Part shown: positions 12,207 to 56,455 of the stretch, piece after piece
Layout: the number at the start of each line of letters is the position of its first letter
Position numbering within the stretch: the first letter of the stretch is position 1
From: Acutalibacteraceae bacterium
GTDB lineage: Bacteria; Bacillota; Clostridia; Oscillospirales; Acutalibacteraceae
Reading direction: 5' to 3'
DNA: 64,000 bases
NCBI GenBank assembly: GCA_045534675.1
Contig: JAZSKE010000031.1
Coordinates: 20,043 to 84,042, forward strand
The notes under the pieces: generated by a model
What the model was told of the DNA's origin: nothing
Databases searched by the model: none
The model's input: the letters and a program-made list of their open reading frames with translations, nothing else
Program-made: the position numbers and the translations under genes

Positions 12207-15200
12207 ATGAATCAGTTTTTTTATGATGAAATTAAATGCAGTGTCACGGCTTTAAAGAAGGCGGGTATTGACCCTACACTTTATCTGGATGATGAAATTA
12301 TAATTGTTTCAGATGAGCATTCACTTGCCGCTTATCTTGCAGGCTTTTTCACTGTAGGTAATAAAAAATCACCTTATGTCAATGTTATTACAGGCGCAAA
12401 GCCTCAAAACGCTGACATTTATTCTTATTTGTCTGCTGAGGTCAAGACTCAGCTTGTTCTCTGTGAGAATTATGATGAGTTCATAAACAGGGGAACAGGC
12501 ATAGACAAAAAGCACATATACTACTTTGCTAATTTACAGCTGCCTGAATATGAGAAAGCAGACTTTGTTTCTGCGAAAAAGGCTGACCTTGAAAGATGGC
12601 TGGATTACTGCAGTGAAAATGAAGGTTCCTTTGTTTTTGTACCCGTATTCAACTTCTCAAAGCCTTTTGAAGAGGGCGTAATCAGTATTTCTGAAAGAGA
12701 AATGGAGGCTGTAGCAGGTTCTGATGCAGACTTTTCTGCCGGAAGACTTCTTCTTGAACTTGAAGAAATTTGCCGCAAGCATTTCAAAGAGAAGAATATA
12801 CCAATGAATATTGTCCGCTTTGATAATATTTTCGGACCTATGGTAAAGGATACAACTAAGCTCGGCATTGATAAAATTATAGGTGAGCTTGCCCAAAACA
12901 ATAAAATTCTCTTCAAAAAGTCCGACAGCATCACTCACTACACGGGCTGTTATATCCGTGAAGCAATTACTGCGGTTTATGCAGTAAGCGTAATAGGAAA
13001 AAACGGTAACATCTATAATGCGGCTAATTATAACTTTACCATACACGATGTTAAGGATGCTCTTTATACTCATTTTGCTTCAAAAAATCCCGTGTGTGAT
13101 TTTGACGATGATATGATGGACGGTTGGGTTACTCAGAAGAACTATGAGTGCCTTGCCAATCTGAAGATACAGTCTCTGGGTTGGGCGGAAGAAACACCCT
13201 TCGGTGAAGCAATTTACAGAACTGCCCTTATTACGGTTGAGCAGGAATATAAGGGCGACTTTTATGTGGACATCTATCAGGGTAAGATTGAGCGCATCAA
13301 GCGTATTGAAATGGATATAATGCGCGAAATTGACCGCATATGCCGTGAAAATAATATTAACTATTTCCTTGTCGGCGGTTCACTTTTAGGTGCAATAAGA
13401 CACAAGGGATTTATCCCCTGGGACGATGATATTGATATCGGTATGCTTCGTGAGGATTTTGAAAAGTTCCGCAGACTCTGTCCTAAGGTGCTTCCCTCAC
13501 ACCTGAGCTATCAGTCATATACAGATGAGCCTACATCTCACTATATCTTTGACAAGGTGCGTCTTAAGGACACTTATTTCAGCACAAAGTTCTCCAATAA
13601 ATTCATTGATATAGAAAATGGTATTTTCATCGATATCCTTGTTTATGACAGAACTGCCAATTCCGACTTTTTCCAGAAGCTTCATATAAATTCAATTCGC
13701 TTTTTCCGCCGTCTTATCAATATCCGTTGGGTCGGCAAGGCAAGACGAGGCATACACTACACTGCATCTAAGATAATGCTTCCCATAATGAAAAAGGTGC
13801 CGTTCCTTACCTATCACTACTTCTTTGAAAAGGCACTTCAGATGTTTGATTTTAAGAAAAACAGCAAATATCTTATTGACGGTGTAGGTCAGAACCTTGA
13901 AAAAGGCCCCTTCCCCATGGATTGGTTTGAGGAGCTTATTGATGTACCTTATGAAGATATGATTTTCAAGGCACCCAAAGCCTATGATGCATATCTCAGA
14001 CACTGGTACGGCAACAGATATATGGAATTGCTGCCTCTTTCGTCAAGAAATTCGGGTCACGCCCTTGCAAGACTTGACCTTGGCAGATATCTCTATAAAG
14101 ATACGGAAAATATGCCCGTACGTGAGGTTGACCTTAACGGAGAGCTTTTTGAAAAGCTTGTTTATGAAAACAATCAGGACGGCATGGACGAAAACTTCCT
14201 TGATGAGATTTCACTTATTGACAAAGAAATTCTTATGAATAATATGAAGCACGGAGCCCTTAACAAGAGTGAAATCAACATTATAGGTGACGAACACACT
14301 CTTGCTGCTTACCTTGCCGGATATTATATGTACCGTAACAAGGCGCAGGGAGAGGGCAGTGTCAATGTTATACTTGAAGGTAAGTGCCGTAACAAAAAAC
14401 TCTATGACCAGATAAGTGAAGAATTTGACGGTAACGGTCTTTTCAATGTTTATGACAGTATTGACAAATACTACAGTATGAGTAAGCCAAATTCCAAGAA
14501 GGTTTATTTCTATCTTGCAAATCTTCAGCTTGATGAATACGCAGACTATGAATTTGTAAGAGAAAAGAAGAAAAATCTTCGCAAGTGGCTTGCACTTTCA
14601 AGAAACTCAAGCGGCAGATTTGTCTTTATACCCTTTTTCAATTTTGCAAAGCCCTTTGACGGTGGCGTTGCCGCAATATCAGAGCGCGAGGTTGAATCCA
14701 TAGTGCTTTATGAAAAGGATTTCCGTCAAGGCAGAATACTTCTTGAGCTTGAGGATGTATGCAGAAAATCCTTCTCATATACAAAAAATCCACTTAATGT
14801 TGTTCGCTTTGACAATATTTTCGGTCCCTTTGTTGAGGATACATCAAAGCTCGGTTTCGGCAGTGTACTCAAAGAGCTTAAAGAAAATAACTCAATTACC
14901 TTCAGAAACAGTGACAGCATTGTTAATTATTCAGCATGCTACATCCGTCAGGCGGTTACTGCAGTGCATTGCGTTGCACTCAAGGGCAGAATAGGCAATA
15001 TTTATAATGCGGCAAATTATAACTTCACACTTCACGATATCAAAACACTTCTCTACGGTGCTTTTGCTGAGAGAAATCCTGCAGTGAGCTTTGTTAACGA
15101 TATTGATAGAGTGCCGCAGGAAAAACTGTATGAGCGTCTCGGTAACCTCAAACTCAGAGATATCGGCTGGACTGAGGTGACACCTCTTGATGAAGCACTT

Positions 15201-16148
15201 GCAAGAACAGTTTATGCTGACCTTGAAAGCAGCGGAGATGACAAGATAAGCCAGACACTCTATCAGGGTAAGCTTAAGAAAATCCGCCAGCTTCAGCTTG
15301 AAATCATAGCCGATGTTGACCGTATATGCCGCAATAACAATATCAGATATTTCCTTGTGGGCGGCTCACTTTTGGGTGCAGTCAAATACGGAGGCTACAT
15401 TCCTTGGGAGGATACAATTGATATAGGTATGTTCCGCGAGGATTATGAAAAATTCAAGGTTGTTTGTCCTAAGGAGCTTTCAGATAAGCTGAAATATCAG
15501 AGCTATGAAAAAGGCTCATCAACTCATTTTATACACGATAAAATCCGTCTCAATGATACAGGCTTCTTCACCGCCGTTTCAGAAAATCATAAGCTTGTTG
15601 ACCTTGGTCTGTTTATTAATGTTTATGTTTACGATAAAACGGCAGGTACTACAATCGGCAGACAGCTTCACTCCTTTACGGTGCAAAATCTCAGAAGACT
15701 TATTAATCTTCGTTGGCAGAATAAGGCTGTACCCGGACCTCACTACAGACTTTATAAGCTTATTCTTCCCTTTGTCAGAATGGTACCCTTTAACCTTTAT
15801 CATGTTATGCTTGATAAGGTGCTTCGCCGTTACAGCAAGAAGGAAAACTGTGTCTTCCTCATTGACGGTGAGGGATTAAGCCTTCACAAGGGTGCTTTCC
15901 CCGCAAAGTGGTTCTATAATCTTGGTGAAATGGAATTTGAAGGTGTCAAGCTTCCCGTACCCGAGTATTATGACGATTATCTCAAGCACTTCTATGGCGA
16001 AAACTATATGAAGACAATTCCTGAGAGTAAGCGTCACAGCGGCAGAAAAATTCTTCGTATCGACCTTGGTAAATATCTCTATGACGAAACGGCAAATGCT
16101 GTAGCTCACAAGAAAAATGCCAAAGGCGAACTCTTTGAGGAATTATAA
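12207..16148 (+). CDS. Tandem-duplicated [degenerate extended-SDR-like domain + LicD-family phosphotransferase domain] x2 protein
   Basis: 1313 aa. The two halves (about aa 1-652 and 653-1313) align end to end. Each half has an RFDNIFGP / IYNAANYNFT epimerase-like core and a YFLVGGSLLGA...PW(DDD/EDT)IDIGM LicD signature. No TM segments are visible. Confidence 0.8.
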   Translation: MNQFFYDEIKCSVTALKKAGIDPTLYLDDEIIIVSDEHSLAAYLAGFFTVGNKKSPYVNVITGAKPQNADIYSYLSAEVKTQLVLCENYDEFINRGTGIDKKHIYYFANLQLPEYEKADFVSAKKADLERWLDYCSENEGSFVFVPVFNFSKPFEEGVISISEREMEAVAGSDADFSAGRLLLELEEICRKHFKEKNIPMNIVRFDNIFGPMVKDTTKLGIDKIIGELAQNNKILFKKSDSITHYTGCYIREAITAVYAVSVIGKNGNIYNAANYNFTIHDVKDALYTHFASKNPVCDFDDDMMDGWVTQKNYECLANLKIQSLGWAEETPFGEAIYRTALITVEQEYKGDFYVDIYQGKIERIKRIEMDIMREIDRICRENNINYFLVGGSLLGAIRHKGFIPWDDDIDIGMLREDFEKFRRLCPKVLPSHLSYQSYTDEPTSHYIFDKVRLKDTYFSTKFSNKFIDIENGIFIDILVYDRTANSDFFQKLHINSIRFFRRLINIRWVGKARRGIHYTASKIMLPIMKKVPFLTYHYFFEKALQMFDFKKNSKYLIDGVGQNLEKGPFPMDWFEELIDVPYEDMIFKAPKAYDAYLRHWYGNRYMELLPLSSRNSGHALARLDLGRYLYKDTENMPVREVDLNGELFEKLVYENNQDGMDENFLDEISLIDKEILMNNMKHGALNKSEINIIGDEHTLAAYLAGYYMYRNKAQGEGSVNVILEGKCRNKKLYDQISEEFDGNGLFNVYDSIDKYYSMSKPNSKKVYFYLANLQLDEYADYEFVREKKKNLRKWLALSRNSSGRFVFIPFFNFAKPFDGGVAAISEREVESIVLYEKDFRQGRILLELEDVCRKSFSYTKNPLNVVRFDNIFGPFVEDTSKLGFGSVLKELKENNSITFRNSDSIVNYSACYIRQAVTAVHCVALKGRIGNIYNAANYNFTLHDIKTLLYGAFAERNPAVSFVNDIDRVPQEKLYERLGNLKLRDIGWTEVTPLDEALARTVYADLESSGDDKISQTLYQGKLKKIRQLQLEIIADVDRICRNNNIRYFLVGGSLLGAVKYGGYIPWEDTIDIGMFREDYEKFKVVCPKELSDKLKYQSYEKGSSTHFIHDKIRLNDTGFFTAVSENHKLVDLGLFINVYVYDKTAGTTIGRQLHSFTVQNLRRLINLRWQNKAVPGPHYRLYKLILPFVRMVPFNLYHVMLDKVLRRYSKKENCVFLIDGEGLSLHKGAFPAKWFYNLGEMEFEGVKLPVPEYYDDYLKHFYGENYMKTIPESKRHSGRKILRIDLGKYLYDETANAVAHKKNAKGELFEEL

Positions 16149-43038: not shown

Positions 43039-45297
43039 ATGGCAAAAAAGAAAACAAGCAAAAAGAAAGATGAAGATGTAAATCTTCTTGCGTACACCCA
43101 TATACTCGGTGCGGGCGAAATGATTGAGCAGAGAATCACCGATACTCTTGAAATCAACTATATGCCCTATGCTATGAGCGTTATCCTTTCTCGTGCAATT
43201 CCTGAAATTGACGGCTTTAAGCCTTCTCACAGAAAGCTCCTTTACACTATGTATAAAATGGGACTTCTTACGGGAAACAGAACAAAGTCAGCAAATATCG
43301 TCGGTCAGACAATGCGTCTTAATCCTCACGGTGACGCTGCCATATATGAAACTATGGTGCGTCTCTCACGAGGCAACGAGGCACTTCTCAATCCTTTTGT
43401 AGACTCAAAGGGTAACTTCGGTAAGGCATATTCAAGAGATATGCACTATGCTGCCGCAAGATATACGGAAGCTAAGCTTGACAGCATCTGCAATGAGCTT
43501 TTCAGAGATATTGATAAGAACACAACTGATTTTGTTGATAACTATGACAGCACAATGAAGGAGCCTTCACTGCTTCCCGTTACCTTCCCGTCAATTCTTG
43601 CCAACACAAACCTTGGCATTGCCGTTGGCATGGCGAGCAGTATCTGCTCATTCAATCTGAAAGAGCTGTGTGAAACAACAATTGAGCTTATCAAAAACAA
43701 AGAGCATGACTGCCTTACAACTATGCCGGCTCCCGACTTTATCGGTGGCGGACAGATTCTCTATGACAGAGATGCTATGGCAGAGGTGTACCGTACAGGC
43801 CGCGGTAATATCAGAGTAAGATCAAAATATGCCTACGATAAGCAGTTTAACTGCATTGATATTACGGAAATTCCTCCCACAACCACTGCTGAAGCAATTA
43901 TTGATAAGATAATAGAGCGTGTAAAGGCAGGCACAATCAAGGAAATCACCGATATCCGTGACGAAACGGATAAGTCAGGTCTTAAAATTACAATTGATCT
44001 CAAGCGCGGCACAGACCCCGATAAGCTTATGAGTAAGCTCTTTAAGCTTACTCCTCTGGAGGATTCCTTCTCCTGCAACTTCAATGTTCTTATTGACGGT
44101 TATCCCAGGGTGCTTGGTGTGCGTGACCTTCTGATTGAGTGGATACGCTTCAGAGGCAAGTGCGTTTTCAGACGTGTTTCATTTGAGCTGAAAAAAGCTC
44201 AGGACAAGCTTCATCTTTTAAAGGGTCTTGAAAAAATCCTTCTCGATATTGATAAGGCAATAAAGATTGTGCGAGAAACTGAGGAAGAAAGCGAAGTAGT
44301 ACCCAACCTTATGATAGGCTTCGGCATAGATGAAATTCAGGCTGAATATGTGGCTGAAATCAAGCTTCGCCACCTCAACAGAGAATATATTCTCAAGCGT
44401 CTTAAGGATATAGAAAATCTCGAGGCTGCCATTGAGGATATGAAGGATATTCTTTCCTCAAAGACAAGAGTGCGTAAGATAATTATCGGTGAGCTTCAGG
44501 ATGTAATTAAAAAGTACGCCAAAGACCGCCGCAGTGAAATTGTTACGGTTACTGCCGTGGACTCTGCCGATGAGGCTGAGGAGATACCTGATTATGCAGT
44601 CAACCTTTTCTTTACAAAAGAAGGCTACTTCAAGAAAATCACACCTCTTTCACTTCGTATGGGCGGTGACCATAAGCTTAAAGACGGTGATGAGATAGTC
44701 CAGAGCTTTGAAACAACTAACAACAATGACCTTCTCTTCTTCACGGATAAGTGTCAGGTCTATAAGGCTAAGGTCAATGATTTTGCCGATTCAAAAGCAA
44801 GTGTCCTTGGAGAGTACATTCCCTCAAAGCTTGAAATGGAAGAAGGGGAGAACGCAATCTTTATGGTTGTGACCAATGATTATAAGGGCTATATGTTCTT
44901 CCTGTTTGAAAACGGCAAGGCAGCAAAGGTCAACCTCAATTCCTATGCTACAAAGACAAACCGTAAAAAGCTCATCAAAGCATACTGTGATAAGTCACCT
45001 CTTGCAGGTATAGAATATCTCAGTGAAGACGGTCAGCTTGTTATTGAAACAACCGGCGGCAGATGCTTGCTGCTTGATACCGCTCTTGTGTCGCCTAAGG
45101 CTATGAAGGATACTCAGGGTGTTGCCTGCATTACTCTGAAGAAAAATCAGAAGATAGCGTCCCTGCGCTTCTTCAGTGAGGGTGAATTTGTAAAGGCATC
45201 ACGCTATAAGGCAAAAAATCTGCCCTCTGCAGGCATGGTTTTAAGCAATGAAGATATTATGAAAAAAAACAACATAACCTTTGACGGCTTTATTTAA
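43039..45297 (+). CDS. Type IIA topoisomerase subunit A (ParC/GyrA-like, 752 aa)
   Basis: YAMSVILSRAIPEIDGFKPSHRKLLY and the catalytic Tyr region AAARYTEAKL. No canonical GyrA box; RMGGDHK sits where QRRGGKG would be. Confidence 0.88.
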   Translation: MAKKKTSKKKDEDVNLLAYTHILGAGEMIEQRITDTLEINYMPYAMSVILSRAIPEIDGFKPSHRKLLYTMYKMGLLTGNRTKSANIVGQTMRLNPHGDAAIYETMVRLSRGNEALLNPFVDSKGNFGKAYSRDMHYAAARYTEAKLDSICNELFRDIDKNTTDFVDNYDSTMKEPSLLPVTFPSILANTNLGIAVGMASSICSFNLKELCETTIELIKNKEHDCLTTMPAPDFIGGGQILYDRDAMAEVYRTGRGNIRVRSKYAYDKQFNCIDITEIPPTTTAEAIIDKIIERVKAGTIKEITDIRDETDKSGLKITIDLKRGTDPDKLMSKLFKLTPLEDSFSCNFNVLIDGYPRVLGVRDLLIEWIRFRGKCVFRRVSFELKKAQDKLHLLKGLEKILLDIDKAIKIVRETEEESEVVPNLMIGFGIDEIQAEYVAEIKLRHLNREYILKRLKDIENLEAAIEDMKDILSSKTRVRKIIIGELQDVIKKYAKDRRSEIVTVTAVDSADEAEEIPDYAVNLFFTKEGYFKKITPLSLRMGGDHKLKDGDEIVQSFETTNNNDLLFFTDKCQVYKAKVNDFADSKASVLGEYIPSKLEMEEGENAIFMVVTNDYKGYMFFLFENGKAAKVNLNSYATKTNRKKLIKAYCDKSPLAGIEYLSEDGQLVIETTGGRCLLLDTALVSPKAMKDTQGVACITLKKNQKIASLRFFSEGEFVKASRYKAKNLPSAGMVLSNEDIMKKNNITFDGFI

Positions 45298-45311
45298 AAG
45301 TTCTTAATCAT

Positions 45312-45351
45312 AACAACTCTCTGACTCGTTTGAGTATGAGAGTTGTTTTTG
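45312..45351 (+). terminator. Intrinsic terminator after the topoisomerase A subunit gene
   Basis: AACAACTCTC-16 nt-GAGAGTTGTT followed by TTT. Confidence 0.75.
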
Positions 45352-45430
45352 CGTATAAAAGTTAGTTTTGCACACTAATGTTGCAATAGTTACAGAATGT
45401 TCACAATTTTATAAACTTCTAATTATATTC

Positions 45431-45480
45431 TGGTGTATAATTTAGACTTAGATGTTTAATTGGGTAATATTGTGTATAAT
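45431..45480 (+). promoter_or_regulatory. Two extended -10 promoter candidates for the A-C-T operon
   Basis: TGgTGTATAAT at 45431-45441 and TGTGTATAAT at 45471-45480. Confidence 0.45.
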
Positions 45481-45516
45481 TGCCCGGGGACATAAAAAAA
45501 TTAAGGAAGTGCTGTT

Positions 45517-47070
45517 TTGGATAAAAGTCAGATATTAACTGTCAGAAATCTTGCTGAATATTCAGTAGAAAAATTTGCAGAAAAAGATTTCTGCCGTTTC
45601 ATCAGAGACGGTGAGATTTTTGCTAAATCATATAAAGAGTTTTATGAAGATGCACTGAGCATCTGCAGATACATCCGATCAAAGAGCAAGGAAAAAATGA
45701 ATATCGGCTTCATCGGAAAAACAAGCTACGAATATATAGCTTGCCTTACAGGTATGATTTTCAGCGGCAATACTGTTGTACCCTTTGCGCCTGATATTAC
45801 TGTTGAGGAAGCTGTTGAACTTTTTGACGATGCTGATATTGAGATTCTTTTCTGCGAAGAAGAATTTGCGGAAAAGGCACGCATGATTAAAAGAAACTTC
45901 GGTGGTCTCAGAGATATAATTTCTCTTGGCAATTGGCAGTGGTTTGAGAATATATATAAAGAGTTTTCATCTGACTCAGCCTATGCGGCTCTTTCAGATG
46001 TTGAGGTTGAACCTGAGAGATGTGCTCTTATTATCTATACCTCCGGCACAACAGGCAAGAGAAAGGGTGTTATGCTTTCTCAGAATAACCTTGCAGCTAA
46101 CTCAACCTACGATGCTTACGCATTGGATAACGATGATGTCAGCTTCTCAATTTTGCCTATGCATCATGTTTTCTGTTATGCCTGTGATGTACTTAAGACT
46201 CTCTACGACGGCGGTACACTTTGCCTTAACGGTCAGCTTCAGAATTTATATAAGCATATGCTTATGTTTGAGCCTACAATTATGAGAATAGTACCTGCTA
46301 TCTGCAAGTCAATTCTCACTAAGATTAAAATCACCGAAAGACAGAATCCTACTCTTTCAAAAAGAGAGGCTGCCGAAAAGGTTGTGGGCAGAAACTTCAG
46401 ACGCATGATAGCCGGCAGTGCCTTTTTGAGCGGTGCGGTTATTGACGAGTTTGAGCAGTACGGCATCACTGCAAGACAGGGCTACGGCATGAGCGAGTGC
46501 AGTCCCAGAATTACTACATCAGATTTTTCTGATAAACTTAAATATTCCAACGGCAGACTTACAGGTGTTGATGAAGTAAGAAGTGTCGACGGCGAAATTC
46601 AGGTTAAGGGTCCCAGCGTAATGCTCGGATATTATAAGATGCCTGAAGAAACAAAGGCTGCTTTCACTGAGGACGGTTGGCTTCACACAGGTGACCTGGG
46701 TTATGTTCAAGACGGACATATTTTCCTTGTGGGCAGAAAAAAGAATCTGATTATTCTTTCCAACGGCGAAAACATCTCTCCCGAAGAAATTGAGAACCGT
46801 TTTGCCGATGAAGGTATAATAAAAGAAATCGTTGTTTTGGCAGAAAACGATAAGCTTGTTGCTGAGATTTTCCCTGACGAAGTGCTTGCCGAAACTTTAG
46901 GTATCACAGATATTGAGGGCGTTATTTCTGCTGTTATAGATAAGGTGAATATGATTTCAGCTTCTGACAGACAGATTTATTCCTTCCGTCTTCGTGAGAA
47001 GCCCTTTGAGAGAACCTCAACAGGCAAGATAAAGAGAACCGAATTTTATTTTAAGGGTAATAAAAATTAA
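45517..47070 (+). CDS. Stand-alone adenylate-forming enzyme (acyl-AMP/acyl-CoA ligase-like)
   Basis: TTG start after AAGGAAG. AMP-binding motifs IIYTSGTTGKRKGV, YGMSEC, TGDLGY and a terminal TSTGKIKR. Confidence 0.88.
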   Translation: MDKSQILTVRNLAEYSVEKFAEKDFCRFIRDGEIFAKSYKEFYEDALSICRYIRSKSKEKMNIGFIGKTSYEYIACLTGMIFSGNTVVPFAPDITVEEAVELFDDADIEILFCEEEFAEKARMIKRNFGGLRDIISLGNWQWFENIYKEFSSDSAYAALSDVEVEPERCALIIYTSGTTGKRKGVMLSQNNLAANSTYDAYALDNDDVSFSILPMHHVFCYACDVLKTLYDGGTLCLNGQLQNLYKHMLMFEPTIMRIVPAICKSILTKIKITERQNPTLSKREAAEKVVGRNFRRMIAGSAFLSGAVIDEFEQYGITARQGYGMSECSPRITTSDFSDKLKYSNGRLTGVDEVRSVDGEIQVKGPSVMLGYYKMPEETKAAFTEDGWLHTGDLGYVQDGHIFLVGRKKNLIILSNGENISPEEIENRFADEGIIKEIVVLAENDKLVAEIFPDEVLAETLGITDIEGVISAVIDKVNMISASDRQIYSFRLREKPFERTSTGKIKRTEFYFKGNKN

Positions 47071-47096
47071 AATTTCCCGAAGGAGGACCTAACGTT

Positions 47097-48641
47097 ATGG
47101 TTGAAGTATTTTTACCTACAGGTGAAAAAGTACACGCTTATCCCATTACCAGTTCACAGAAGATGATGTATCTTATGTCGCTTAAATACGGCTCAGGCTA
47201 TCCTGTTAACAATATCGGATTTGGCTTTTATTGGCAGGGTGAAATGGACAAGGCTGTTATGAAAAAAGCTATTTACGAAGCGATTGAACGTTGTGACACA
47301 ATGAGACTTCGTTTTGTTATGGGCAAGAAGCTTCAGCTTCTTCAGTATGTAACATATAACAGTGAGCTTGTTGTTGAAGATTGGGACTTCAGTGATATGA
47401 CAATCGATGAGGCTGAGGAAAAGATACTTGCTTTCTCAAGAGAGAGCATTCCCATGTATAAGTGCGAGCTTCATAAAATTGCCCTTGTTGATTTTGCTGA
47501 CGGATATCACGGCATCTTTATGAGAATACAGCACCTTGCAATGGATGCTTATTCACTCAAGGTCTTCGTCAATGATATTATTGATATCTATATGCACAGA
47601 ACAAGAGGTACCGGATATCCCAAGCCTATGCGTCCCTACATACCCGTACTTGAAGATGAGCTTGCTTATGAAACATCTAAGCAGCATAAAGATGACCAGA
47701 TGTATTGGTACAACTCACTTGCTCTGAGTACTGAGCCTATCTTCACAGATTTCATGCTTGATAACAGACTTAAACAGCAGCAGATTAAGGAACCGGACAA
47801 GCGTTATGCTGACATTCACTCAGGTCTTCCCGATGCTTCAGGCTTCAAGTTCAGCATGAGCGCAGAAGACAGCAAAAAGATAATGGATATGTGCGAGGCA
47901 AACAATCTTTCCATCTTCTCATATCTTTCAATGGGTGTTCGCACCGCTCTTTCATGCTTCAATGATAATCAGGAAGATGTTTCCTTCAAGATGATTATCA
48001 ACAGACGCGGTACTATTGCCGAAAAGAAGTCAGGCGGTATCCGTATCAACTTCCTTCCTATGAGAAGCATTGTCAAGCCTACCGAAACTTTTATCGATGC
48101 AGTCAGAGGCATTTCTGAGATTCAGAACGAAATGTATCAGCATTCAAGACTTGCATTCCTTGAAACACTTGCTGAAAGACACAAGTCAATGTCAAAGGAT
48201 GCTAAGTTTGACTCAACATATGACAGCTTCGGTCTTTCATATCAGCCCCATGTCAAGATGAAAGCCATTGACGAGCAGATGGAAAAGACAGCACGTACTA
48301 TATGGTACAACAACGGTGCTATTATGATTCCTCTTTATGTAACTGTTGTTCACAGACAAGGTGATGCAGGCTTTGATTTCATCTGCGAATACAGATCAGA
48401 GCAGCAGGCTGAATATGACCTCAGAGTACTTTGCTCAAAAATTGAAAAAGCTATGGTTCTCGGTGCAGAGAATCCCCATATAACAGTACAGGAAGTACTT
48501 GATAAAATTGCGTTAACTGATGAAGAAAGGAACGGTAAACCCCAATGCAAACAATCGAAAAACTTATTGACATCCTTGCAAACTACGTGGAAGCTGACGA
48601 AATCAAGGCTGAAGACAATTTTAAGTCTGATCTCGGCATGA
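47097..48641 (+). CDS. Stand-alone condensation (C) domain protein
   Basis: C1-like motif YPITSSQKMMYLM and a catalytic HHxxxDG-type variant, IQHLAMDAYS. About 480 aa of C-domain length. The last ~32 codons overlap the carrier-protein gene. Confidence 0.75.
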   Translation: MVEVFLPTGEKVHAYPITSSQKMMYLMSLKYGSGYPVNNIGFGFYWQGEMDKAVMKKAIYEAIERCDTMRLRFVMGKKLQLLQYVTYNSELVVEDWDFSDMTIDEAEEKILAFSRESIPMYKCELHKIALVDFADGYHGIFMRIQHLAMDAYSLKVFVNDIIDIYMHRTRGTGYPKPMRPYIPVLEDELAYETSKQHKDDQMYWYNSLALSTEPIFTDFMLDNRLKQQQIKEPDKRYADIHSGLPDASGFKFSMSAEDSKKIMDMCEANNLSIFSYLSMGVRTALSCFNDNQEDVSFKMIINRRGTIAEKKSGGIRINFLPMRSIVKPTETFIDAVRGISEIQNEMYQHSRLAFLETLAERHKSMSKDAKFDSTYDSFGLSYQPHVKMKAIDEQMEKTARTIWYNNGAIMIPLYVTVVHRQGDAGFDFICEYRSEQQAEYDLRVLCSKIEKAMVLGAENPHITVQEVLDKIALTDEERNGKPQCKQSKNLLTSLQTTWKLTKSRLKTILSLISA

Positions 48642-48772
48642 GTTCATTTGACACAATGTGCATGATCGGCGATATCAAGTCAGCTCTCGGTGTTGAGCTT
48701 AAAGCTGCAGATTTTGTTAAGAATAAGTCTGTTGGCGAAATGGCTGCTTATATCGATTCAGTAAAAGCATAA
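48545..48772 (+). CDS. Acyl/peptidyl carrier protein
   Basis: 75 aa four-helix-type carrier with the phosphopantetheine attachment motif DLGMSSFDTM. Confidence 0.8.
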   Translation: MQTIEKLIDILANYVEADEIKAEDNFKSDLGMSSFDTMCMIGDIKSALGVELKAADFVKNKSVGEMAAYIDSVKA

Positions 48773-48786
48773 TTCAGCATATTTTA

Positions 48787-48824
48787 AAAGGACAGTTACC
48801 TTAATCGGTAGCTGTCCTTTTTTG
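48787..48824. terminator. Strong, probably bidirectional terminator
   Basis: AAAGGACAGTTACC-6 nt-GGTAGCTGTCCTTT with a T-run downstream and an A-run upstream. Confidence 0.85.
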
Positions 48825-48962
48825 TCAATTGTGCAGGACTTCTCCGCAATCAATCAACATTTGCGGAAAAGTCACAAACGCATACGAGTGCCGTAATCGG
48901 GTCTCATTAACCTTACCGCACTTATATTGTGGCTTAATCTGAGTTATATAAACATAGAAAAA

Positions 48963-50333
48963 TTATCCTTTTAGGCGGCCTACCATAATCTTTGCTGCCT
49001 TATAAATATCGCCGCAGCCGAGAGTGATGATTATGTCGCCTTTTTTTGCATTTGCAAGCACATGGTCACAAACCTCTTCAAAGGTGTTGAACCACACACT
49101 GCCGGGAATTTTATCTGCTAAATCCTTTGTGTAAATGCCGTAGGTGTTCACTTCTCTTGAACCCATAATTTCAGTCATAACACATTTATCGGGGATTTTC
49201 AGCACACGCACAAAGTCGTCAAAAAGGATGGATGTTCTTGAATAGGTGAAGGGCTGGAAGACTGCCCACACGGTGTTGTAACCCATTTTCATAACTGCAT
49301 TGAGTGTAACCTCAAGCTCACCGGGATGATGTGCATAGTCATCGGCAATTGTTATGCCGTCAATTTCACCTAAAATTTCAAAGCGTCTGCCTGCGCCCTT
49401 GAATGCACCGATGCCTTTTTCGCACTGCTCGTAGGTGCAGCCTGCATTTACTGCTGCTGCAAAAGCGGCAAGCGAATTGAGAATATTATGCTCTCCGGGG
49501 ATGCCAAGAACAAGGTGAGCCAGCTTATTACCCTCACTCATAACATCAAATTCGGCAAACGCACCTCTGTTATAAGTGATGTTCTCAGGGTAATATGTAC
49601 AACTCTTGTTTTTGCCGAAACTGATTTTTTCTTTGTTAAGATTTTTCACAGTGCGCAGAGTATTTTCATCATCACCGTTGAAAATTACGGTTTTTGATGT
49701 CATATCACAGAATTTATTGAAGGAAGCAACAATATTATCGAGATTTTTGAAATATTCAAGGTGATCTTCATCAACATTGAGAAGTATTGTCACATCGGGT
49801 GACAGCTTATGGTAGTGATCCTTATATTCGCAGGCTTCGCACACAAAAATATCGCTCTTGCCGGCTCTGCCGTGGCTCTCAATAAGGGGCAGTCTGCCGC
49901 CGATAAGACAAGTGGGATCCTTTTCAGCTTCAATAAGAATCTGTGAAAGCATAGCAGTTACCGTTGTCTTGCCGTGAGTGCCGCAGACAGCGATGCAATC
50001 TGAATACATTCTTGTGATTGCACCGAAAATTTCAGCTCTTTCAACGCAGGGTACACTGCCGTTTTTAGCAGCCACAAGCTCGGGATTATCTTTTAGAATT
50101 GCATCGGTGTAAACAATAAGCTCAGCGCCTTCGAGATTTTCCGGCTTCTGACCTAAAATAACCTTCATTCCAAGCTCACGAAGCTTTGTAATATTATCCC
50201 CGTCGTTGTTGTCTGAGCCGCTGATATCGTAGCCCCATGAGTGGAGAATTTCAGCTATGGGACACATACCTGAGCCGCCGATGCCGATAAAATGAATTTT
50301 CTTTATTTCTTTTAAAAGGCTGTCTATATTCAT
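48963..50333 (-). CDS. murC: UDP-N-acetylmuramate--L-alanine ligase
   Basis: IHFIGIGGSGM and GTHGKTT Mur ligase motifs. Confidence 0.93.
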   Translation of the reverse strand: MNIDSLLKEIKKIHFIGIGGSGMCPIAEILHSWGYDISGSDNNDGDNITKLRELGMKVILGQKPENLEGAELIVYTDAILKDNPELVAAKNGSVPCVERAEIFGAITRMYSDCIAVCGTHGKTTVTAMLSQILIEAEKDPTCLIGGRLPLIESHGRAGKSDIFVCEACEYKDHYHKLSPDVTILLNVDEDHLEYFKNLDNIVASFNKFCDMTSKTVIFNGDDENTLRTVKNLNKEKISFGKNKSCTYYPENITYNRGAFAEFDVMSEGNKLAHLVLGIPGEHNILNSLAAFAAAVNAGCTYEQCEKGIGAFKGAGRRFEILGEIDGITIADDYAHHPGELEVTLNAVMKMGYNTVWAVFQPFTYSRTSILFDDFVRVLKIPDKCVMTEIMGSREVNTYGIYTKDLADKIPGSVWFNTFEEVCDHVLANAKKGDIIITLGCGDIYKAAKIMVGRLKG

Positions 50334-52206: not shown

Positions 52207-53571
52207 TTACATATTGCCGAAGATTTCTCTAATCTCAGCAGCTCTGCCGCAGGTCATTTTGCCTTCGGGACAAGCTCCGTGTACATAGCAGCTGGGTCCG
52301 TAAAGCGAGAAGAGGTCAGGTGAAATCTTGCGAAGCTTCTTAAGGAAATCGTTAGCAAAGAGCTGAATTTCCCACTGAGCTCTTGTGCATGAGCGAAGTC
52401 TGAAGAAAAGAAGCATCTCACGGGCGTTCATTGTTGTTACAATGTCAAGAGTGTTACCGCTGAGTACGCAGTATATAAGCACATTATCGTCATATCCCTT
52501 TGTTTTAAGCTCGTTATAAAGCTCTTTCATATCAGCGAAAGCCTCGTTATAAATTGCGAGTGCATCACTGTCAGCCTTTATTGTGTCAGGGATAACATAT
52601 GAGCTTCTGTCTGCTTTCATAAGACTCGGAATGCAAATGCTCTGTATTCTGTGTCTTGCAAAATGTGTCAGACAAGCAAGTGAAACCTTGTTGAATTTAA
52701 CTGTGCAGGTGTAGCTTTCAAGCGCTCTGGGTCTTGATGATGCTGCAAGCTTTTTAAATACAGCTTTAATGTTTTCCTTATCGCTCACGATTTTTTTTGC
52801 AGCAGCAGGGGAGTAGCCTGCCTCATAAAGTGCGCACAAGGCTACATTCTTTTCGCCGTCGGGCGTATATGCAAGAATTTCGCAAAGCTCATCGGATGAC
52901 TTGTCATCACCGTTTTCAAAGCCGTAATCAAGTTCATCGTTATATTTCTGACCTTTAAGCTCAAAGTCAATAAACAGACCGGGTGCAATAGCCTTACACT
53001 GCTCAAGCAGTGACAGACCTATTTCATATATCTCTTTGATTTTTCTGCCTCTGCCGTAAATCATGGCATTAAGCACATTTATAAGCTCTCTGCCGCCAAG
53101 TGAACAGAAAAAGTTTGAATAGAAGCAGTAGGGCAGCACAAAGCGTGCATCCTCTTTCGGAATTTCTTTTTCGGTCAGTGCTGAGTAAGCGGCAAAAAGC
53201 TTGTCCATTACGGCAGTGTACTTTGCCATATCTTTATCGTCAGCGAATGCGGGAACAAGATAACCGCAATCTGCAAAGTCGACATAGCGTCTTGATTTAA
53301 CGGTGAATGAAGCAAGTCTGAATTCAATCATAAACTGCTCAACAACAACGCTGACATTTTCAAAAGCAAGGTTGAAGAATATGTGTTCAATTGTTGAGGT
53401 GTGACCTGATTTTGTTACTTTGCCGATAAGTTTTGTGTTTTTTTCTTCGTCGTGGCTTCTCTCAAAAATTTCAAGAGCAGTGCCGTTCTGTGTGGAAATT
53501 CGTCCCGATGCGGCGCAGACCTCCTGCTTTACATCTGAACAGCCTATTACAAAAGCACCGTGTTTATCCAT
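52207..53571 (-). CDS. Double-length, internally duplicated ThyX-family (FAD-dependent thymidylate synthase-like) protein
   Basis: 454 aa. The first half has SGHTSTIEH and FRLASFTVKSRRY. The second half has FARHRIQSICIPS (RHRxxS). Confidence 0.7.
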   Translation of the reverse strand: MDKHGAFVIGCSDVKQEVCAASGRISTQNGTALEIFERSHDEEKNTKLIGKVTKSGHTSTIEHIFFNLAFENVSVVVEQFMIEFRLASFTVKSRRYVDFADCGYLVPAFADDKDMAKYTAVMDKLFAAYSALTEKEIPKEDARFVLPYCFYSNFFCSLGGRELINVLNAMIYGRGRKIKEIYEIGLSLLEQCKAIAPGLFIDFELKGQKYNDELDYGFENGDDKSSDELCEILAYTPDGEKNVALCALYEAGYSPAAAKKIVSDKENIKAVFKKLAASSRPRALESYTCTVKFNKVSLACLTHFARHRIQSICIPSLMKADRSSYVIPDTIKADSDALAIYNEAFADMKELYNELKTKGYDDNVLIYCVLSGNTLDIVTTMNAREMLLFFRLRSCTRAQWEIQLFANDFLKKLRKISPDLFSLYGPSCYVHGACPEGKMTCGRAAEIREIFGNM

Positions 53572-54119: not shown

Positions 54120-54794
54120 ATGGGTAAAATGATTGTTATTGACGGCCTTGACGGAAGCGGTAAAGCCACCCAGGCAGAGATGCTTAAAAACTATCTTTCA
54201 TCAAGAGGCTGCAGCACCTATACACTTGACCTGCCCTTTTATTCGGATGCGTCAAGCACTCTTGTGAAAATGTATCTTGGCGGTGAGCTTGGTGACAATC
54301 CTTCCGATGTCAACGCCTACGCGGCATCTACCTTCTATGCAGCCGACAGATATGCAAGCTATAAAAAGCACTGGCAGAAGGAATATGAAAGCGAAAAAAT
54401 TGTTGTTGCAAACAGATATACAACTTCAAACGCCTGCCACCAGATGACAAAACTCCCTAAGGACAAATGGGATGAATATTTAAGTTGGCTTTTTGAGTTT
54501 GAATACGGCAAGCTTGGCATACCCGAGCCTGACTGTGTTATCTTTCTTGATATGCCCGTTGATATTTCACAAAAACTGTTGTTAAAACGCTATAAAGGTG
54601 ACGAAAATAAAAAAGATGTGCATGAAAGAGATGTCAGGTATCTCTTTGACTGTCACGAAGCTGCAGTGTATGCTGCCGAAAAATTAGGTTGGCACAGAGT
54701 AATCTGCGGTAAAGACGGTGAACCTCTTACAATAGACGAAATTTCGGCTGAGGTCTGCCGTATAGCGGAAAGGGAGCTTTTAGGAAATGACTGA
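54120..54794 (+). CDS. Thymidylate kinase-family protein
   Basis: P-loop VIDGLDGSGKATQ and an ANRYTTSNACHQ region corresponding to the Tmk DRY...AYQ motif. Confidence 0.7.
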   Translation: MGKMIVIDGLDGSGKATQAEMLKNYLSSRGCSTYTLDLPFYSDASSTLVKMYLGGELGDNPSDVNAYAASTFYAADRYASYKKHWQKEYESEKIVVANRYTTSNACHQMTKLPKDKWDEYLSWLFEFEYGKLGIPEPDCVIFLDMPVDISQKLLLKRYKGDENKKDVHERDVRYLFDCHEAAVYAAEKLGWHRVICGKDGEPLTIDEISAEVCRIAERELLGND

Positions 54795-55683
54795 ACTACA
54801 CACCGTAACTCTCGGTGATAAAACATGGATAAACGAAATACTTTCAAAGGTGCCGTTTTTTACCTGTGAATATCCATTCGGTAATGTGTTTTCCTACGGC
54901 GCTAAAATGGAAATTAAGGTTGGTAATATTGCAGGCTGTCTTGTCACCAAGTGTATATATGATGACAGCATTATGTACTGCTGTCCCATTGGCGACGGCG
55001 ATATGAAAATGGCAATTGAATTTATCTTAGACGATGCTCGCAAAGACGGCAGAGATTTTGAAATATTCGGTATTTCACCTGATTCTGCTGAATTTATTTC
55101 AGAAAATTTTCAGGGCGTTTTTGATATTTCTCTTCAGAGGAATACCTTCGACTATATTTACAGCAGTGAAGATCTGATAAATCTTGCCGGTAAAAAATAT
55201 CAGCCCAAGCGTAACCATATCTCGTTTTTTATGAGAAATAACAATTGGAGCTACGAAAGAATAACAAGAGAGAATATTCCCGAGTGCCTTGAAATGAGCA
55301 AGGTCTGGCTTGAGGGCACTCTTGAAGAATACAGAGAAGACCTTGAAGCCGAGCTTAAAATAATTAGAAGAGTTTTTGATAACTATGAGGAACTTGGCTA
55401 TGTGGGCGGACTTTTAAGAGCAGACGGCAAGGTTATTGCCTACACAATGGGAGAGAGAATGACCGATGAAATGTTCTGTGTTCACATTGAAAAGGCCTTC
55501 TCCGATATCAGAGGGGCATACCCTATGATAAATCAGCAGTTTGTTAAAAACGAACTGTCAGATTACAAATATATTAACCGTGAGGACGATACGGGTGCTG
55601 AAAATCTCAGAAAAGCCAAGCTGAGCTATTACCCTGTCATCCTTGCAGAAAAGTATGAGGCGAAGCTGAAAAATGCTAATTAA
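54787..55683 (+). CDS. DUF2156 protein (stand-alone homolog of the MprF aminoacyl-PG synthase C-terminal domain)
   Basis: AGKKYQPKRNHISFF plus tandem GNAT-like halves; no membrane domain. Overlaps the neighbouring genes at both ends. Confidence 0.6.
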   Translation: MTELHTVTLGDKTWINEILSKVPFFTCEYPFGNVFSYGAKMEIKVGNIAGCLVTKCIYDDSIMYCCPIGDGDMKMAIEFILDDARKDGRDFEIFGISPDSAEFISENFQGVFDISLQRNTFDYIYSSEDLINLAGKKYQPKRNHISFFMRNNNWSYERITRENIPECLEMSKVWLEGTLEEYREDLEAELKIIRRVFDNYEELGYVGGLLRADGKVIAYTMGERMTDEMFCVHIEKAFSDIRGAYPMINQQFVKNELSDYKYINREDDTGAENLRKAKLSYYPVILAEKYEAKLKNAN

Positions 55684-56455
55684 AGCAGATGAAAAACACA
55701 TCCCGTCGCTGATAAAACTGTGGCACGATGTTTTCGGTGACAGTGAAGAATATATAAAGCTCTTTTTCAGAAAGGCTTACTATGACGGCGAGTGCTTTGC
55801 CGAAACTCATGACGGTGAGTTTATCAGTGCCTTTTATCTTCTTAAATGCAGCGTCAGGTACGCGGGCAAGGTTTATGAGGGCAGATATCTTTATGCCGCC
55901 GCAACTCTCCCCGAGTACCGCGGAAAAGGGCTTATGTCAAAGCTTATAGGTGAAGCTACAGCTTACTGTAAAGATATGGGTCTTGATTTTATAGCCCTGG
56001 TGCCTGCCGGTGACAGCCTTTACGGATATTACGGCAGATACGGCTTTCAGGAGGCTATGTATAAATACAGATTTGTAATAAACAATGAGTGTGTCACTCT
56101 TCGTGCTTATCGTGAGCTTGAAAACGCCGACGAATTTTATAAAATAAGAAGCTCATCGGACGGTGTTCTTGTTTACGGAAAAACCGGTTCGGATTATGCT
56201 TATGATTGTCTCAAATTTTCTGATAACAAAATTATTTCTGTCAGTAATGGCAGTTATTACATTGACGGTGAAGAATTGTTTGTCGGTGATGATGAAGACG
56301 CTGCCTTAAACTTTTTAAACTCACTTGGCGGGGAAAGAGTTGTCTATTCCGACAAGCCTTTGATGAATGCCGAAAAGGTGCGCAACGGAATGTTATACAC
56401 TTTTAATAATGAACTTAAAAACAAAGAAATTTATATGAATATAGCATTGGACTAA
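55673..56455 (+). CDS. GNAT-family N-acetyltransferase
   Basis: Acetyl-CoA motif A LPEYRGKGLMSKLI. Confidence 0.75.
   Translation: MLIKADEKHIPSLIKLWHDVFGDSEEYIKLFFRKAYYDGECFAETHDGEFISAFYLLKCSVRYAGKVYEGRYLYAAATLPEYRGKGLMSKLIGEATAYCKDMGLDFIALVPAGDSLYGYYGRYGFQEAMYKYRFVINNECVTLRAYRELENADEFYKIRSSSDGVLVYGKTGSDYAYDCLKFSDNKIISVSNGSYYIDGEELFVGDDEDAALNFLNSLGGERVVYSDKPLMNAEKVRNGMLYTFNNELKNKEIYMNIALD

What the first reader, a model, noticed from the sequence alone, without database searches (positions are those of the whole stretch)
45517..48772. Self-contained minimal A + C + T operon (stand-alone adenylating enzyme, condensation domain, carrier protein)
Seen directly: three co-directional genes are insulated by strong terminators on both sides (45312-45351 and 48787-48824) and have their own extended -10 promoters. 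Gene 1 has the full adenylate-forming motif set (SGTTGKRKG, YGMSEC, TGDLGY, GKIKR) and looks more like a fatty-acyl ligase than an amino-acid A domain. Gene 2 has the C-domain C1 motif (SSQKMMYLM) and an HxxxD catalytic variant (QHLAMDAYS). Gene 3 is a 75-aa carrier with a GMSSFD Ppant serine. There is no thioesterase, reductase, PPTase or second carrier in the window. Release would therefore have to occur by C-domain-catalysed attack of a free amine or alcohol, which would give N-acyl amides or esters. Established knowledge: a family of gut Clostridia gene clusters with exactly this parts list (stand-alone C, acyl-AMP ligase, T) has been reported to make fatty-acid amides with host-signalling activity. 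I cannot verify orthology from here. It sits among core genes (topoisomerase, murC), not in an obvious island.
Basis: partly seen in the sequence, partly recalled or inferred. Interest (0 to 1): 0.7.

Follow-up and report, generated by a model that had tools for sequence, protein, structure and literature searches.

The report
Three-gene fatty-acid-amide synthase operon
This is a compact three-gene operon in a gut Clostridia bacterium, related to a known system that joins a fatty acid to a free amine to make host-signalling lipid amides. It is a new, divergent member of that family, and the end of its condensation gene is written inside the carrier-protein gene.

Summary
Three co-directional genes lie between two strong terminator hairpins: an acyl-adenylating enzyme (45517-47070), a free-standing condensation protein (47097-48641) and a 75-aa carrier protein (48545-48772).

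All three proteins are homologues of OaaA, OaaC and OaaACP of Coprococcus eutactus, the reconstituted and crystallised fatty-acid-amide (FAA) pathway.
- Identities are 36%, 31% and 29%. The C protein scores 225 bits against PDB 12kh, and the next best structure scores 48 bits.
- The C protein falls in a family of stand-alone C proteins (NJ split 60/60 bootstraps). Its catalytic motif, QHLAMDA, is the family's non-canonical xHxxxD(S/A/G).

Differences from the OAA cluster:
- The host is an Acutalibacteraceae bacterium, not Clostridium cluster XIVa.
- Gene order is A-C-T, not C-T-A.
This adds most of a 43-aa basic tail that OaaC lacks.
- The overlap is present in all ten clade members. Synonymous variation in the overlapped carrier codons is suppressed (p about 0.001-0.005), with no such effect in the non-overlapping OAA clade.

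The product and the tail's function are unknown. Verdict: new member of a known kind, moderate interest.

The parts
45312..45347 (+). Intrinsic terminator hairpin after the parC-like gene; upstream boundary of the operon
   Evidence: -19.7 kcal/mol, z -4.9, followed by TTTTTG. Conserved in L001 and L002.
45434..45441 (+). Candidate -10 element TGTATAAT of the single operon promoter (inferred, not verified)
   Evidence: perfect TATAAT preceded by TG, conserved in L001 and L002. The second copy at 45473-45480 is not conserved in L001. No good -35 element.
45517..47070 (+). Gene 1: free-standing acyl-adenylating (ANL) enzyme, OaaA homologue, 517 aa, TTG start after an AAGGAAG ribosome-binding site
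   Evidence: PF00501 7.7e-50. 36% identical to OaaA of the C. eutactus-type locus (7e-103). Motifs A3, A5, A7, A8 and A10 present.
47097..48641 (+). Gene 2: free-standing condensation protein of the FAA clade, OaaC homologue, 514 aa
   Evidence: PF00668 8.1e-39. PDB 12kh 225 bits. Groups with stand-alone C proteins in 60/60 bootstraps.
47529..47549 (+). Catalytic motif QHLAMDA (His146, Asp150): the non-canonical xHxxxD(S/A/G) form of HHxxxDG
   Evidence: The family logo is described in PMC13310621.
48510..48638 (+). 43-aa C-terminal extension of the C protein beyond the end of OaaC (residues 472-514, net charge about +6). Residues 484-514 are encoded inside the carrier gene.
   Evidence: OaaC ends at window residue 471. 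This is the longest extension among 65 stand-alone representatives.
48545..48641 (+). 97-nt out-of-frame overlap of the C and carrier genes (dual-coding segment). The C stop codon TGA lies inside the Met32-Ser33 codons of the carrier.
   Evidence: same overlap in all ten clade members; synonymous variation is suppressed only here.
48545..48772 (+). Gene 3: 75-aa acyl carrier protein, OaaACP homologue
   Evidence: PF00550 7.1e-11. 29% identical to OaaACP.
48644..48646 (+). Codon of Ser34, the predicted phosphopantetheine attachment site (DLGMSSFD)
   Evidence: aligns with the Ser of DLGADSLD in B. subtilis ACP (1hy8). SS is conserved in OaaACP and in all clade members.
48786..48821 (+). Intrinsic terminator hairpin after the carrier gene. 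It has A and T runs on both sides, so it may also serve the convergent murC gene.
   Evidence: -22.8 kcal/mol, z -8.0.

Best explanation
The locus is a self-contained A-C-T operon of the gut-Clostridia fatty-acid-amide (FAA) NRPS-like family.

**Proposed mechanism.**
1. The ANL enzyme adenylates a free fatty acid with ATP.
2. It transfers the acyl group to the phosphopantetheine thiol on Ser34 of the 75-aa carrier. The carrier is first converted to its holo form by a PPTase encoded elsewhere in the genome.
3. The free-standing C protein (catalytic His146/Asp150 in QHLAMDA) takes the acyl-carrier as donor. It lets a freely diffusing small amine attack the thioester.
4. This releases an N-acyl amide and regenerates the holo-carrier, so no thioesterase is needed.

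**Shown here.** Gene structure, domain identity, catalytic residues, homology of all three proteins to the reconstituted Oaa system, family placement, and conservation of the triad in different genomic contexts.

**Inferred.** The chemistry, by homology at 29-36% identity.

**Unknown.** The identity of the acid and of the amine.

**Derived feature of this clade.** The C gene reads 97 nt into the carrier gene in another frame. This gives the C protein a 43-aa lysine-rich tail that appears to be under purifying selection. My best guess, and it is only an inference, is that the tail contacts the acidic carrier (net charge -6) or the membrane.
For: - Domain calls.
- OaaC (PDB 12kh) at 225 bits, against 48 bits for the next structure.
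- A, C and T are 36%, 31% and 29% identical to the C. eutactus-type proteins in L022.
- Biochemistry of the Oaa system: PMC13310621.
- Among 1.84 billion representatives, 73 stand-alone C proteins score 114-546 bits. No single C domain inside a large NRPS scores above 74 bits.
- An NJ split separates stand-alone from NRPS-embedded C domains in 60/60 bootstraps.
- The motif is xHxxxD(S/A/G) in stand-alone proteins and HHxxxDG in NRPS domains.
- The triad is conserved in ten clade loci whose flanks differ.
- Codon-position identities of 0.83, 0.89 and 0.55 in the C gene show purifying selection.
- For the tail: overlap in all ten members; carrier third-position identity 0.80 in the overlap against 0.52 outside it; invariant third positions 14/32 against 6/43 (Fisher p=0.004); entropy test p=0.0008; no such effect in the non-overlapping OAA clade (p=0.25); no conserved RNA structure.
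Against: - Identity to the characterised system is only 29-36%, so donor and acceptor specificity cannot be transferred.
- No structure model could be made: single-sequence AlphaFold2 gave pLDDT 32.7.
- There is no PPTase in the window.
- Transcript evidence is only two short metatranscriptome contigs, at 92-98% identity, over the C/carrier junction.
- For the tail: the nearest outgroups (P0001 at 52% and P0002 at 40% identity) lack it, so it is not needed for the core chemistry. Its amphipathicity is unremarkable (589 of 2000 shuffles reach it). The sequences in the selection tests are related by descent, so the p-values are approximate.
Confidence: 0.85

Rival explanations
1. Same three-protein logic, but the C protein transfers the acyl group to a hydroxyl or to a larger acceptor (a lipid, sugar or cell-envelope precursor). 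The product would then be an ester or a lipidated envelope component for the bacterium's own use, not a diffusible amide.
For: The condensation superfamily includes ester-forming members (established knowledge). The acceptor site cannot be read at 31% identity without a model. Some relatives sit beside ABC exporters, and the window locus lies beside murC.
Against: The closest characterised relative by a wide margin is an amide synthase that uses free amines. The flanking genes are not conserved among relatives. Only PF00668 is hit; no WS/DGAT-type family appears.
Confidence: 0.07
2. The A enzyme activates a non-fatty acid (aromatic, short-chain or dicarboxylic), so the product is an amide of another acid class.
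For: Every NCBIfam hit is far below its family cut-off. The best solved relatives of A are malonyl-CoA and oxalate-CoA ligases and luciferases, at about 106 bits.
Against: OaaA, a fatty-acid-activating enzyme, is much closer (306 bits, 36% identity). The top NCBIfam model is a long-chain-fatty-acid--CoA ligase. C groups with fatty-acyl-using stand-alone C proteins.
Confidence: 0.05
3. The 97-nt overlap and tail are a neutral read-through caused by loss of the ancestral stop codon. The reduced synonymous variation comes from something other than selection on the tail, such as constraints on carrier translation initiation or shared ancestry.
For: Outgroups at 52% and 40% identity end at or before the carrier start. 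The basic composition of the tail is what an acidic GAN-rich frame gives when read out of frame (sequence inspection). The tail shows no striking amphipathic signal.
Against: Suppression of synonymous change extends over all 32 overlapped codons, not only near the start codon. It is absent in the non-overlapping OAA clade. With random synonymous codons the alternative frame stays open in only 21-38% of trials per sequence, yet it is open in all nine distinct clade sequences. There is no conserved RNA structure.
Confidence: 0.3

Closest known systems
OAA (oleoyl aminovaleric acid) cluster of Coprococcus eutactus: OaaC (PDB 12kh), OaaACP, OaaA (Chang et al. 2021, Nat Microbiol 6:792, cited via PMC13310621; Singh, Grant & Gulick 2026, PMC13310621)
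   Same: The same three free-standing proteins and nothing else. All three are homologous (A 36%, C 31%, carrier 29% identity). C has a non-canonical xHxxxD(S/A) motif. The carrier has SS at the attachment site. There is no thioesterase and no acceptor carrier.
   Different: - Gene order is A-C-T rather than C-T-A.
- C is 514 aa with a 43-aa basic tail, against 463 aa in OaaC.
- The C and carrier genes overlap by 97 nt; in OAA they are separated by 60-145 nt.
- The motif is QHLAMDA rather than DHRLMDS.
- There is no TetR gene downstream.
- The host is Acutalibacteraceae rather than Lachnospiraceae.
- The product is unknown.
ebf/ecf FAA clusters of Enterocloster bolteae and E. clostridioformis (Elmassry et al., PMC10871352)
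   Same: Stand-alone C, T and A genes that make N-acyl amides (N-myristoyl-putrescine, N-acyl-lysines and others).
   Different: Those clusters also encode a PPTase, an SCP2-like lipid-transfer protein and a hydrolase. The window operon has none of these. Sequence similarity to ebf/ecf could not be measured here.
Starter (lipoinitiation) condensation domains of lipopeptide NRPSs (the rhizomide RzmA condensation domain 7c1k, CDA C1; the first C domain of PvdL also ranks here)
   Same: They use a fatty-acyl donor. They are the best non-FAA structural relatives (48, 35 and 30 bits). N-terminal C domains of large NRPSs are among the best NRPS-embedded hits.
   Different: They are embedded in megasynthases, carry HHxxxDG, and their acceptor is an aminoacyl group on a carrier. 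Scores are 3-7 times lower than for OaaC.
VibH (vibriobactin amide synthase, PDB 1l5a)
   Same: A free-standing C protein that uses a free small-molecule amine (norspermidine) as acceptor.
   Different: Very distant (29.9 bits). Its donor is an aryl (dihydroxybenzoyl) carrier protein.

Membership tests
FAA NRPS-like pathway of gut Clostridia (Chang 2021; Oaa system) | Free-standing condensation protein belonging to the FAA C-domain clade, distinct from NRPS-embedded C domains | tested here: met
   OaaC (12kh) scores 225 bits against 48 bits for the next structure. Stand-alone representatives score 114-546 bits, against at most 74 bits for any single NRPS C domain. In the NJ tree, the split grouping the window protein and the OaaC representative P0011 with all stand-alone proteins has 60/60 bootstraps.
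FAA NRPS-like pathway of gut Clostridia (Chang 2021; Oaa system) | Non-canonical catalytic motif (D/H/x)HxxxD(S/A/G), with the second His and the Asp conserved | tested here: met
   QHLAMDA at residues 145-151. This pattern is found in 64 stand-alone representatives, while NRPS domains show HHxxxDG. PMC13310621 reports Ala at the last position in 36% of FAA C domains.
FAA NRPS-like pathway of gut Clostridia (Chang 2021; Oaa system) | Adjacent free-standing fatty-acid-activating ANL enzyme homologous to OaaA | tested here: met
   36% identity and 7e-103 over 503 residues. All core adenylation motifs are present. Substrate not tested.
FAA NRPS-like pathway of gut Clostridia (Chang 2021; Oaa system) | Adjacent free-standing carrier protein with a phosphopantetheinylatable serine | tested here: met
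   PF00550 7.1e-11. 29% identical to OaaACP, with the shared DLGxSSxD motif. Ser34 aligns with the modified Ser of B. subtilis ACP.
FAA NRPS-like pathway of gut Clostridia (Chang 2021; Oaa system) | No acceptor carrier, thioesterase or reductase; release by a free amine | tested here: inconclusive
   The window has no second carrier, A or C gene, and the flanking genes are housekeeping. Absence of a releasing enzyme elsewhere in the genome, and use of a free amine, cannot be shown from sequence.
FAA NRPS-like pathway of gut Clostridia (Chang 2021; Oaa system) | Produces an N-acyl amide from a fatty acid and an amine | not testable with these tools
   Needs reconstitution or heterologous expression with LC-MS.
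FAA NRPS-like pathway of gut Clostridia (Chang 2021; Oaa system) | Typical (not defining) traits: host in Clostridium cluster XIVa; gene order C-T-A as in OAA | tested here: not met
   The nearest genomes are Acutalibacteraceae MAGs, whereas 95.4% of known FAA-NRPS genomes are cluster XIVa (PMC10871352). The order here is A-C-T, as in relatives L070-L073.
Canonical NRPS condensation domains (LCL, DCL, starter) | Embedded in a multidomain synthetase, with HHxxxDG and a carrier-bound acceptor | tested here: not met
   Stand-alone 514-aa protein. Motif QHLAMDA. No acceptor carrier. Low per-domain scores to NRPS C domains.
   At E<=0.1 the only Pfam hit is PF00668 Condensation. The PDB hits are all NRPS-type C domains.

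The most novel reading that the evidence does not exclude
The 43-aa lysine-rich tail arose by overprinting: the C gene lost its stop codon and reads on through the first 32 codons of the carrier gene. On this reading the tail is a functional new module, for example a docking or gating element that binds the acidic carrier, or the membrane. It would replace or modify the homodimer-based gating described for OaaC. That would make it a recent, datable case of a functional peptide born de novo inside a biosynthetic operon.
Probability: 0.25. Interest if true: 0.6.

Novelty: new member of a known kind. Interest (0 to 1): 0.4.

Why it matters
FAA clusters are among the few gut-microbiome gene clusters with a demonstrated route to host GPCR and immune signalling (PMC13310621, PMC10871352, bioRxiv 10.64898/2026.08.24.746719). 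Nearly all known examples come from Lachnospiraceae. This locus extends the family to uncultured Acutalibacteraceae found in gut, faecal and ruminant (roe deer, sheep) metagenomes. Its sequences are divergent enough (about 30% identity to OaaC) that the acid/amine pair, and so the signalling molecule, may be new. The operon is about 3.5 kb, which makes it an easy target for synthesis and reconstitution. The conserved out-of-frame C/carrier overlap is a small but clean test case for gene overprinting. It may also bear on how free-standing C proteins recognise their carrier.

Tried and rejected
I used the PDB sequence search, the genome and metagenome scans, and the 1.84-billion representative search instead.
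- **Chang et al. 2021** is not held. Its content is cited only through PMC13310621 and PMC10871352.
- **Structure.** Single-sequence AlphaFold2 of the C protein failed (mean pLDDT 32.7). I did not run a fold search on it. Alignments containing locus-derived sequences are not accepted by that tool.
- **Programmed -1 frameshift** fusing C to the carrier at G_AAA_AAC (48555-48561): rejected, because the heptamer is not conserved in relatives.
- **Conserved RNA structure at the junction**: RNAalifold gave -5.8 kcal/mol with no covariation. Rfam found nothing in 45200-49100.
- **Amphipathic membrane helix in the tail**: the hydrophobic moment is not above that of shuffles.
- **PPTase in the window**: none by phmmer with Sfp and AcpS.
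- **RNA evidence**: three gut metatranscriptomes hold only fragments.
- **Exact-protein look-up** of the window C protein: not on record.
- **Genomic island signature**: no GC shift and no tRNA gene.
Full report
**1. What is there**

Between a parC-like gene (43039-45297) and a convergent murC (48963-50333, minus strand) lie three + strand ORFs:
- 45517-47070: 517 aa, TTG start seven bases after AAGGAAG.
- 47097-48641: 514 aa, ATG after GGAGG.
- 48545-48772: 75 aa.

Pfam assigns AMP-binding plus AMP-binding_C_3 (7.7e-50), Condensation (8.1e-39) and PP-binding (7.1e-11).

The carrier's DLGMSSFD aligns with DLGADSLD of B. subtilis ACP. Ser34 is therefore the predicted phosphopantetheine site.

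The two flanking hairpins fold at -19.7 kcal/mol (45312-47) and -22.8 kcal/mol (48786-48821). Their z-scores are -4.9 and -8.0.

The operon has one plausible promoter region, with TGTATAAT at 45434-41 conserved in two relatives. The idea of a separate promoter for each gene is not supported: gene 2 follows gene 1 after 26 nt, and gene 3 begins inside gene 2.

**2.

The C gene does not stop before the carrier gene. It continues for 97 nt (48545-48641) in another frame. Its TGA stop lies inside the Met32-Ser33 codons of the carrier.

**3. Relatives and identity of the system**

The PDB sequence search gave a decisive hit. The C protein matches chain 12kh_A at 1.4e-65 (225 bits, residues 14-469). 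The next best structure is the first C domain of PvdL (residues about 552-860) at 48 bits. After that come TycB, McyB, the rhizomide condensation-domain entry 7c1k, VibH and CDA-C1.

12kh is OaaC of Coprococcus eutactus, the free-standing condensation protein of the oleoyl-aminovaleric-acid pathway. Singh, Grant and Gulick (PMC13310621) crystallised OaaC and reconstituted it with OaaA and OaaACP. They showed that it forms fatty acid amides from acyl-ACP and a free amine. They also showed that FAA C domains form a clade next to starter C domains, with a (D/H)HxxxD(S/A/G) motif.

A metagenome scan recovered the C. eutactus-type locus many times. In L022, for example, C (463 aa) is near-identical to the 12kh chain. 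Against that locus, the window proteins compare as follows:

| Window protein | Oaa partner | Identity | E-value |
|---|---|---|---|
| A | OaaA | 36% | 7e-103 |
| Carrier | OaaACP | 29% | 4e-11 |
| C | OaaC | 31% | 3e-70 |

The carrier and OaaACP share the unusual SS motif.

**4. Family placement**

I searched 1.84 billion representative proteins with the C protein. This gave 10,762 hits at E<=1e-3 and 100 at E<=1e-30.

Scored domain by domain, 73 stand-alone proteins of about 450-490 aa reach 114-546 bits. No single C domain inside any large NRPS exceeds 74 bits. Several of the best NRPS-embedded hits are N-terminal, starter-type domains.

I built an NJ tree of 65 stand-alone proteins and 49 NRPS-embedded domains. 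The stand-alone set includes the window protein and the OaaC representative P0011. It is split from all embedded domains in 60 of 60 bootstraps.

The stand-alone proteins carry xHxxxD(S/A/G), with QHLAMDA in the window protein. The embedded domains carry HHxxxDG.

The A enzyme scores higher on fatty-acid--CoA ligase models (211 bits) than on the amino-acid adenylation model (110 bits). It is far closer to OaaA (306 bits) than to any solved ANL enzyme (at most 106 bits).

**5. Host and context**

The nearest genomes are MAGs labelled Acutalibacteraceae (97% and 75% identity at the C protein), two roe-deer gut Clostridia MAGs (91% and 77%) and one labelled Clostridiaceae (70%). The DNA is found in gut, faecal and sheep metagenomes. 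Acutalibacteraceae is a family of Clostridia outside cluster XIVa. By contrast, 95.4% of FAA-NRPS-bearing genomes surveyed by Elmassry et al. belong to cluster XIVa (PMC10871352).

Flanking genes in the window are housekeeping: parE/parC-like, murC, dpaAB, thyX, tmk. GC content does not differ from the flanks, and there are no tRNA genes.

The flanks differ among relatives:
- L003 and L004 have two ABC exporter genes directly upstream.
- L010 has a GH127 gene.
- L005 has a second carrier paralogue and a radical-SAM gene.

Only the A-C-T triad is conserved, so it is a self-contained module. No PPTase, second carrier, second A or second C was found in the window. This matches the minimal OAA cluster. 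It differs from ebf/ecf, which also encode a PPTase, an SCP2-like protein and a hydrolase.

**6. Architecture differs from OAA**

Using HMMs built from the window and L022 proteins, I found two layouts among 70 loci.
- The C. eutactus type is C(463)-T(82)-A(519), with 60-145 nt between C and T.
- The window clade (window plus L001-L010, 69-97% identity) is A(517-521)-C(514-516)-T(75-76), with exactly 97 nt of C/T overlap in every member.

The next relatives also have the A-C-T order but no long overlap:
- P0001 (52% identity, locus L070) has an 8-nt overlap, and its C protein ends ...EERDGKNG.
- P0002 (40% identity, L071-73) has a 19-nt gap and a second AMP-binding gene after T.

OaaC ends at window residue 471. 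The window protein therefore carries a 43-aa extension, the longest among 65 stand-alone representatives. The overlap is thus a derived trait of this clade.

**7. Is the overlapped tail under selection?**

- **Third-position identity.** In five divergent clade members, carrier third-codon positions are 0.80 identical over the 32 overlapped codons. They are 0.52 identical over the remaining 43 codons, and 0.545 in the C gene.
- **Nine distinct sequences.** Invariant third positions number 14/32 in the overlap against 6/43 outside it (Fisher p=0.004). Third-position entropy is lower in the overlap (Mann-Whitney p=0.0008).
- **Control.** The same comparison in the non-overlapping OAA clade shows no difference (0.325 against 0.376, p=0.25).
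- **Codon resampling.** Keeping each carrier protein fixed and redrawing synonymous codons, the alternative frame stays open in only 21-38% of trials per sequence. It is never open in all nine at once (0/2000). Observed tail identity is 0.65 against 0.375 under this null. The null ignores shared ancestry, so it is generous.
- **Alternative explanations.** RNAalifold finds no conserved structure across the junction. A -1 frameshift site in the window is not conserved.

I conclude that the tail is probably constrained as protein (about 0.7). It has a net charge of +5 to +8, while the carrier's is -6. It is not notably amphipathic. Its function is unknown. Carrier docking, or a change to the OaaC-type dimer gating, is my speculation only.

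**8. Mechanism, with status of each step**

1. A adenylates a fatty acid and loads holo-carrier Ser34. This is inferred from 36% identity to OaaA and the full motif set.
2. A PPTase encoded elsewhere makes the holo-carrier. This is inferred; none is in the window.
3. C, through His146/Asp150, catalyses attack of a free amine on the acyl thioester. The amide is released without a thioesterase. This is inferred from membership of the FAA C clade and the absence of an acceptor carrier.

The acid and the amine cannot be predicted at this identity without a model. Single-sequence AlphaFold2 failed (pLDDT 32.7).

Expression evidence is weak. Two metatranscriptome contigs at 92-98% identity cover the C/carrier junction.

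**9. Verdict**

This is a divergent member of an already characterised and actively studied family, not a new kind of system. What is new:
- the taxon;
- the unknown product;
- the A-C-T subclade;
- the conserved 97-nt dual-coding overlap that adds a basic tail to the condensation protein.

Interest is moderate (0.4).

Noticed in passing
window 52207-53571 (- strand): The thyX-like gene encodes 454 aa with two Thy1 (PF02511) stretches. That is about twice the usual ThyX length, so it looks like a tandem-fused double ThyX.
   Followed up: no
L071 7676-9298 (also L072 3585-5207): The relative at 40% identity (P0002) has an A-C-T-A2 layout: a second 540-aa AMP-binding gene starts 2 nt after the carrier gene. 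It might activate a second substrate, which would be a different logic from the minimal triad.
   Followed up: partly
L005 2525-2764 and 2789-3619 (= L008): One clade member has a second carrier-protein paralogue (79 aa, 51% identical to the first, SS motif kept) about 290 nt downstream. It is followed by a convergent radical-SAM/DUF4080 gene.
   Followed up: partly
L003 573-4249; L004 4-1773: In the relatives at 75-77% identity, the A-C-T operon is directly preceded by a pair of ABC exporter genes (ABC_membrane + ABC_tran). These are absent from the window locus and could be a product exporter.
   Followed up: no
window 12207-16148: A 1313-aa protein with two LicD-family (PF04991) stretches. 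This is unusually large for a LicD phosphocholine/phosphotransferase-type protein.
   Followed up: no
window 54787-56455: A stand-alone LPG_synthase_C (DUF2156, aminoacyl-phosphatidylglycerol synthase C-terminal domain) gene is followed by a GNAT acetyltransferase gene. This is a possible small lipid or amine acylation pair unrelated to the finding.
   Followed up: no
L045, L054, L059, L060, L063, L066: Several human-gut metagenome contigs of the C. eutactus-type cluster show the C or A gene split into two ORFs. These may be assembly errors or natural pseudogenes of the OAA pathway.
   Followed up: no
window 48525-48544 and the same place in L001-L010, L070: The stretch GAAAGGAA(C/T)GG(T/A)AAACC just upstream of the carrier start is almost invariant at the nucleotide level, and a recognisably similar stretch is present even in the outgroup at 52% identity. 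It encodes E-R-N-G-K in the C frame and serves as the carrier's ribosome-binding site, 13 nt from the ATG, which is a rather long spacing.
   Followed up: partly
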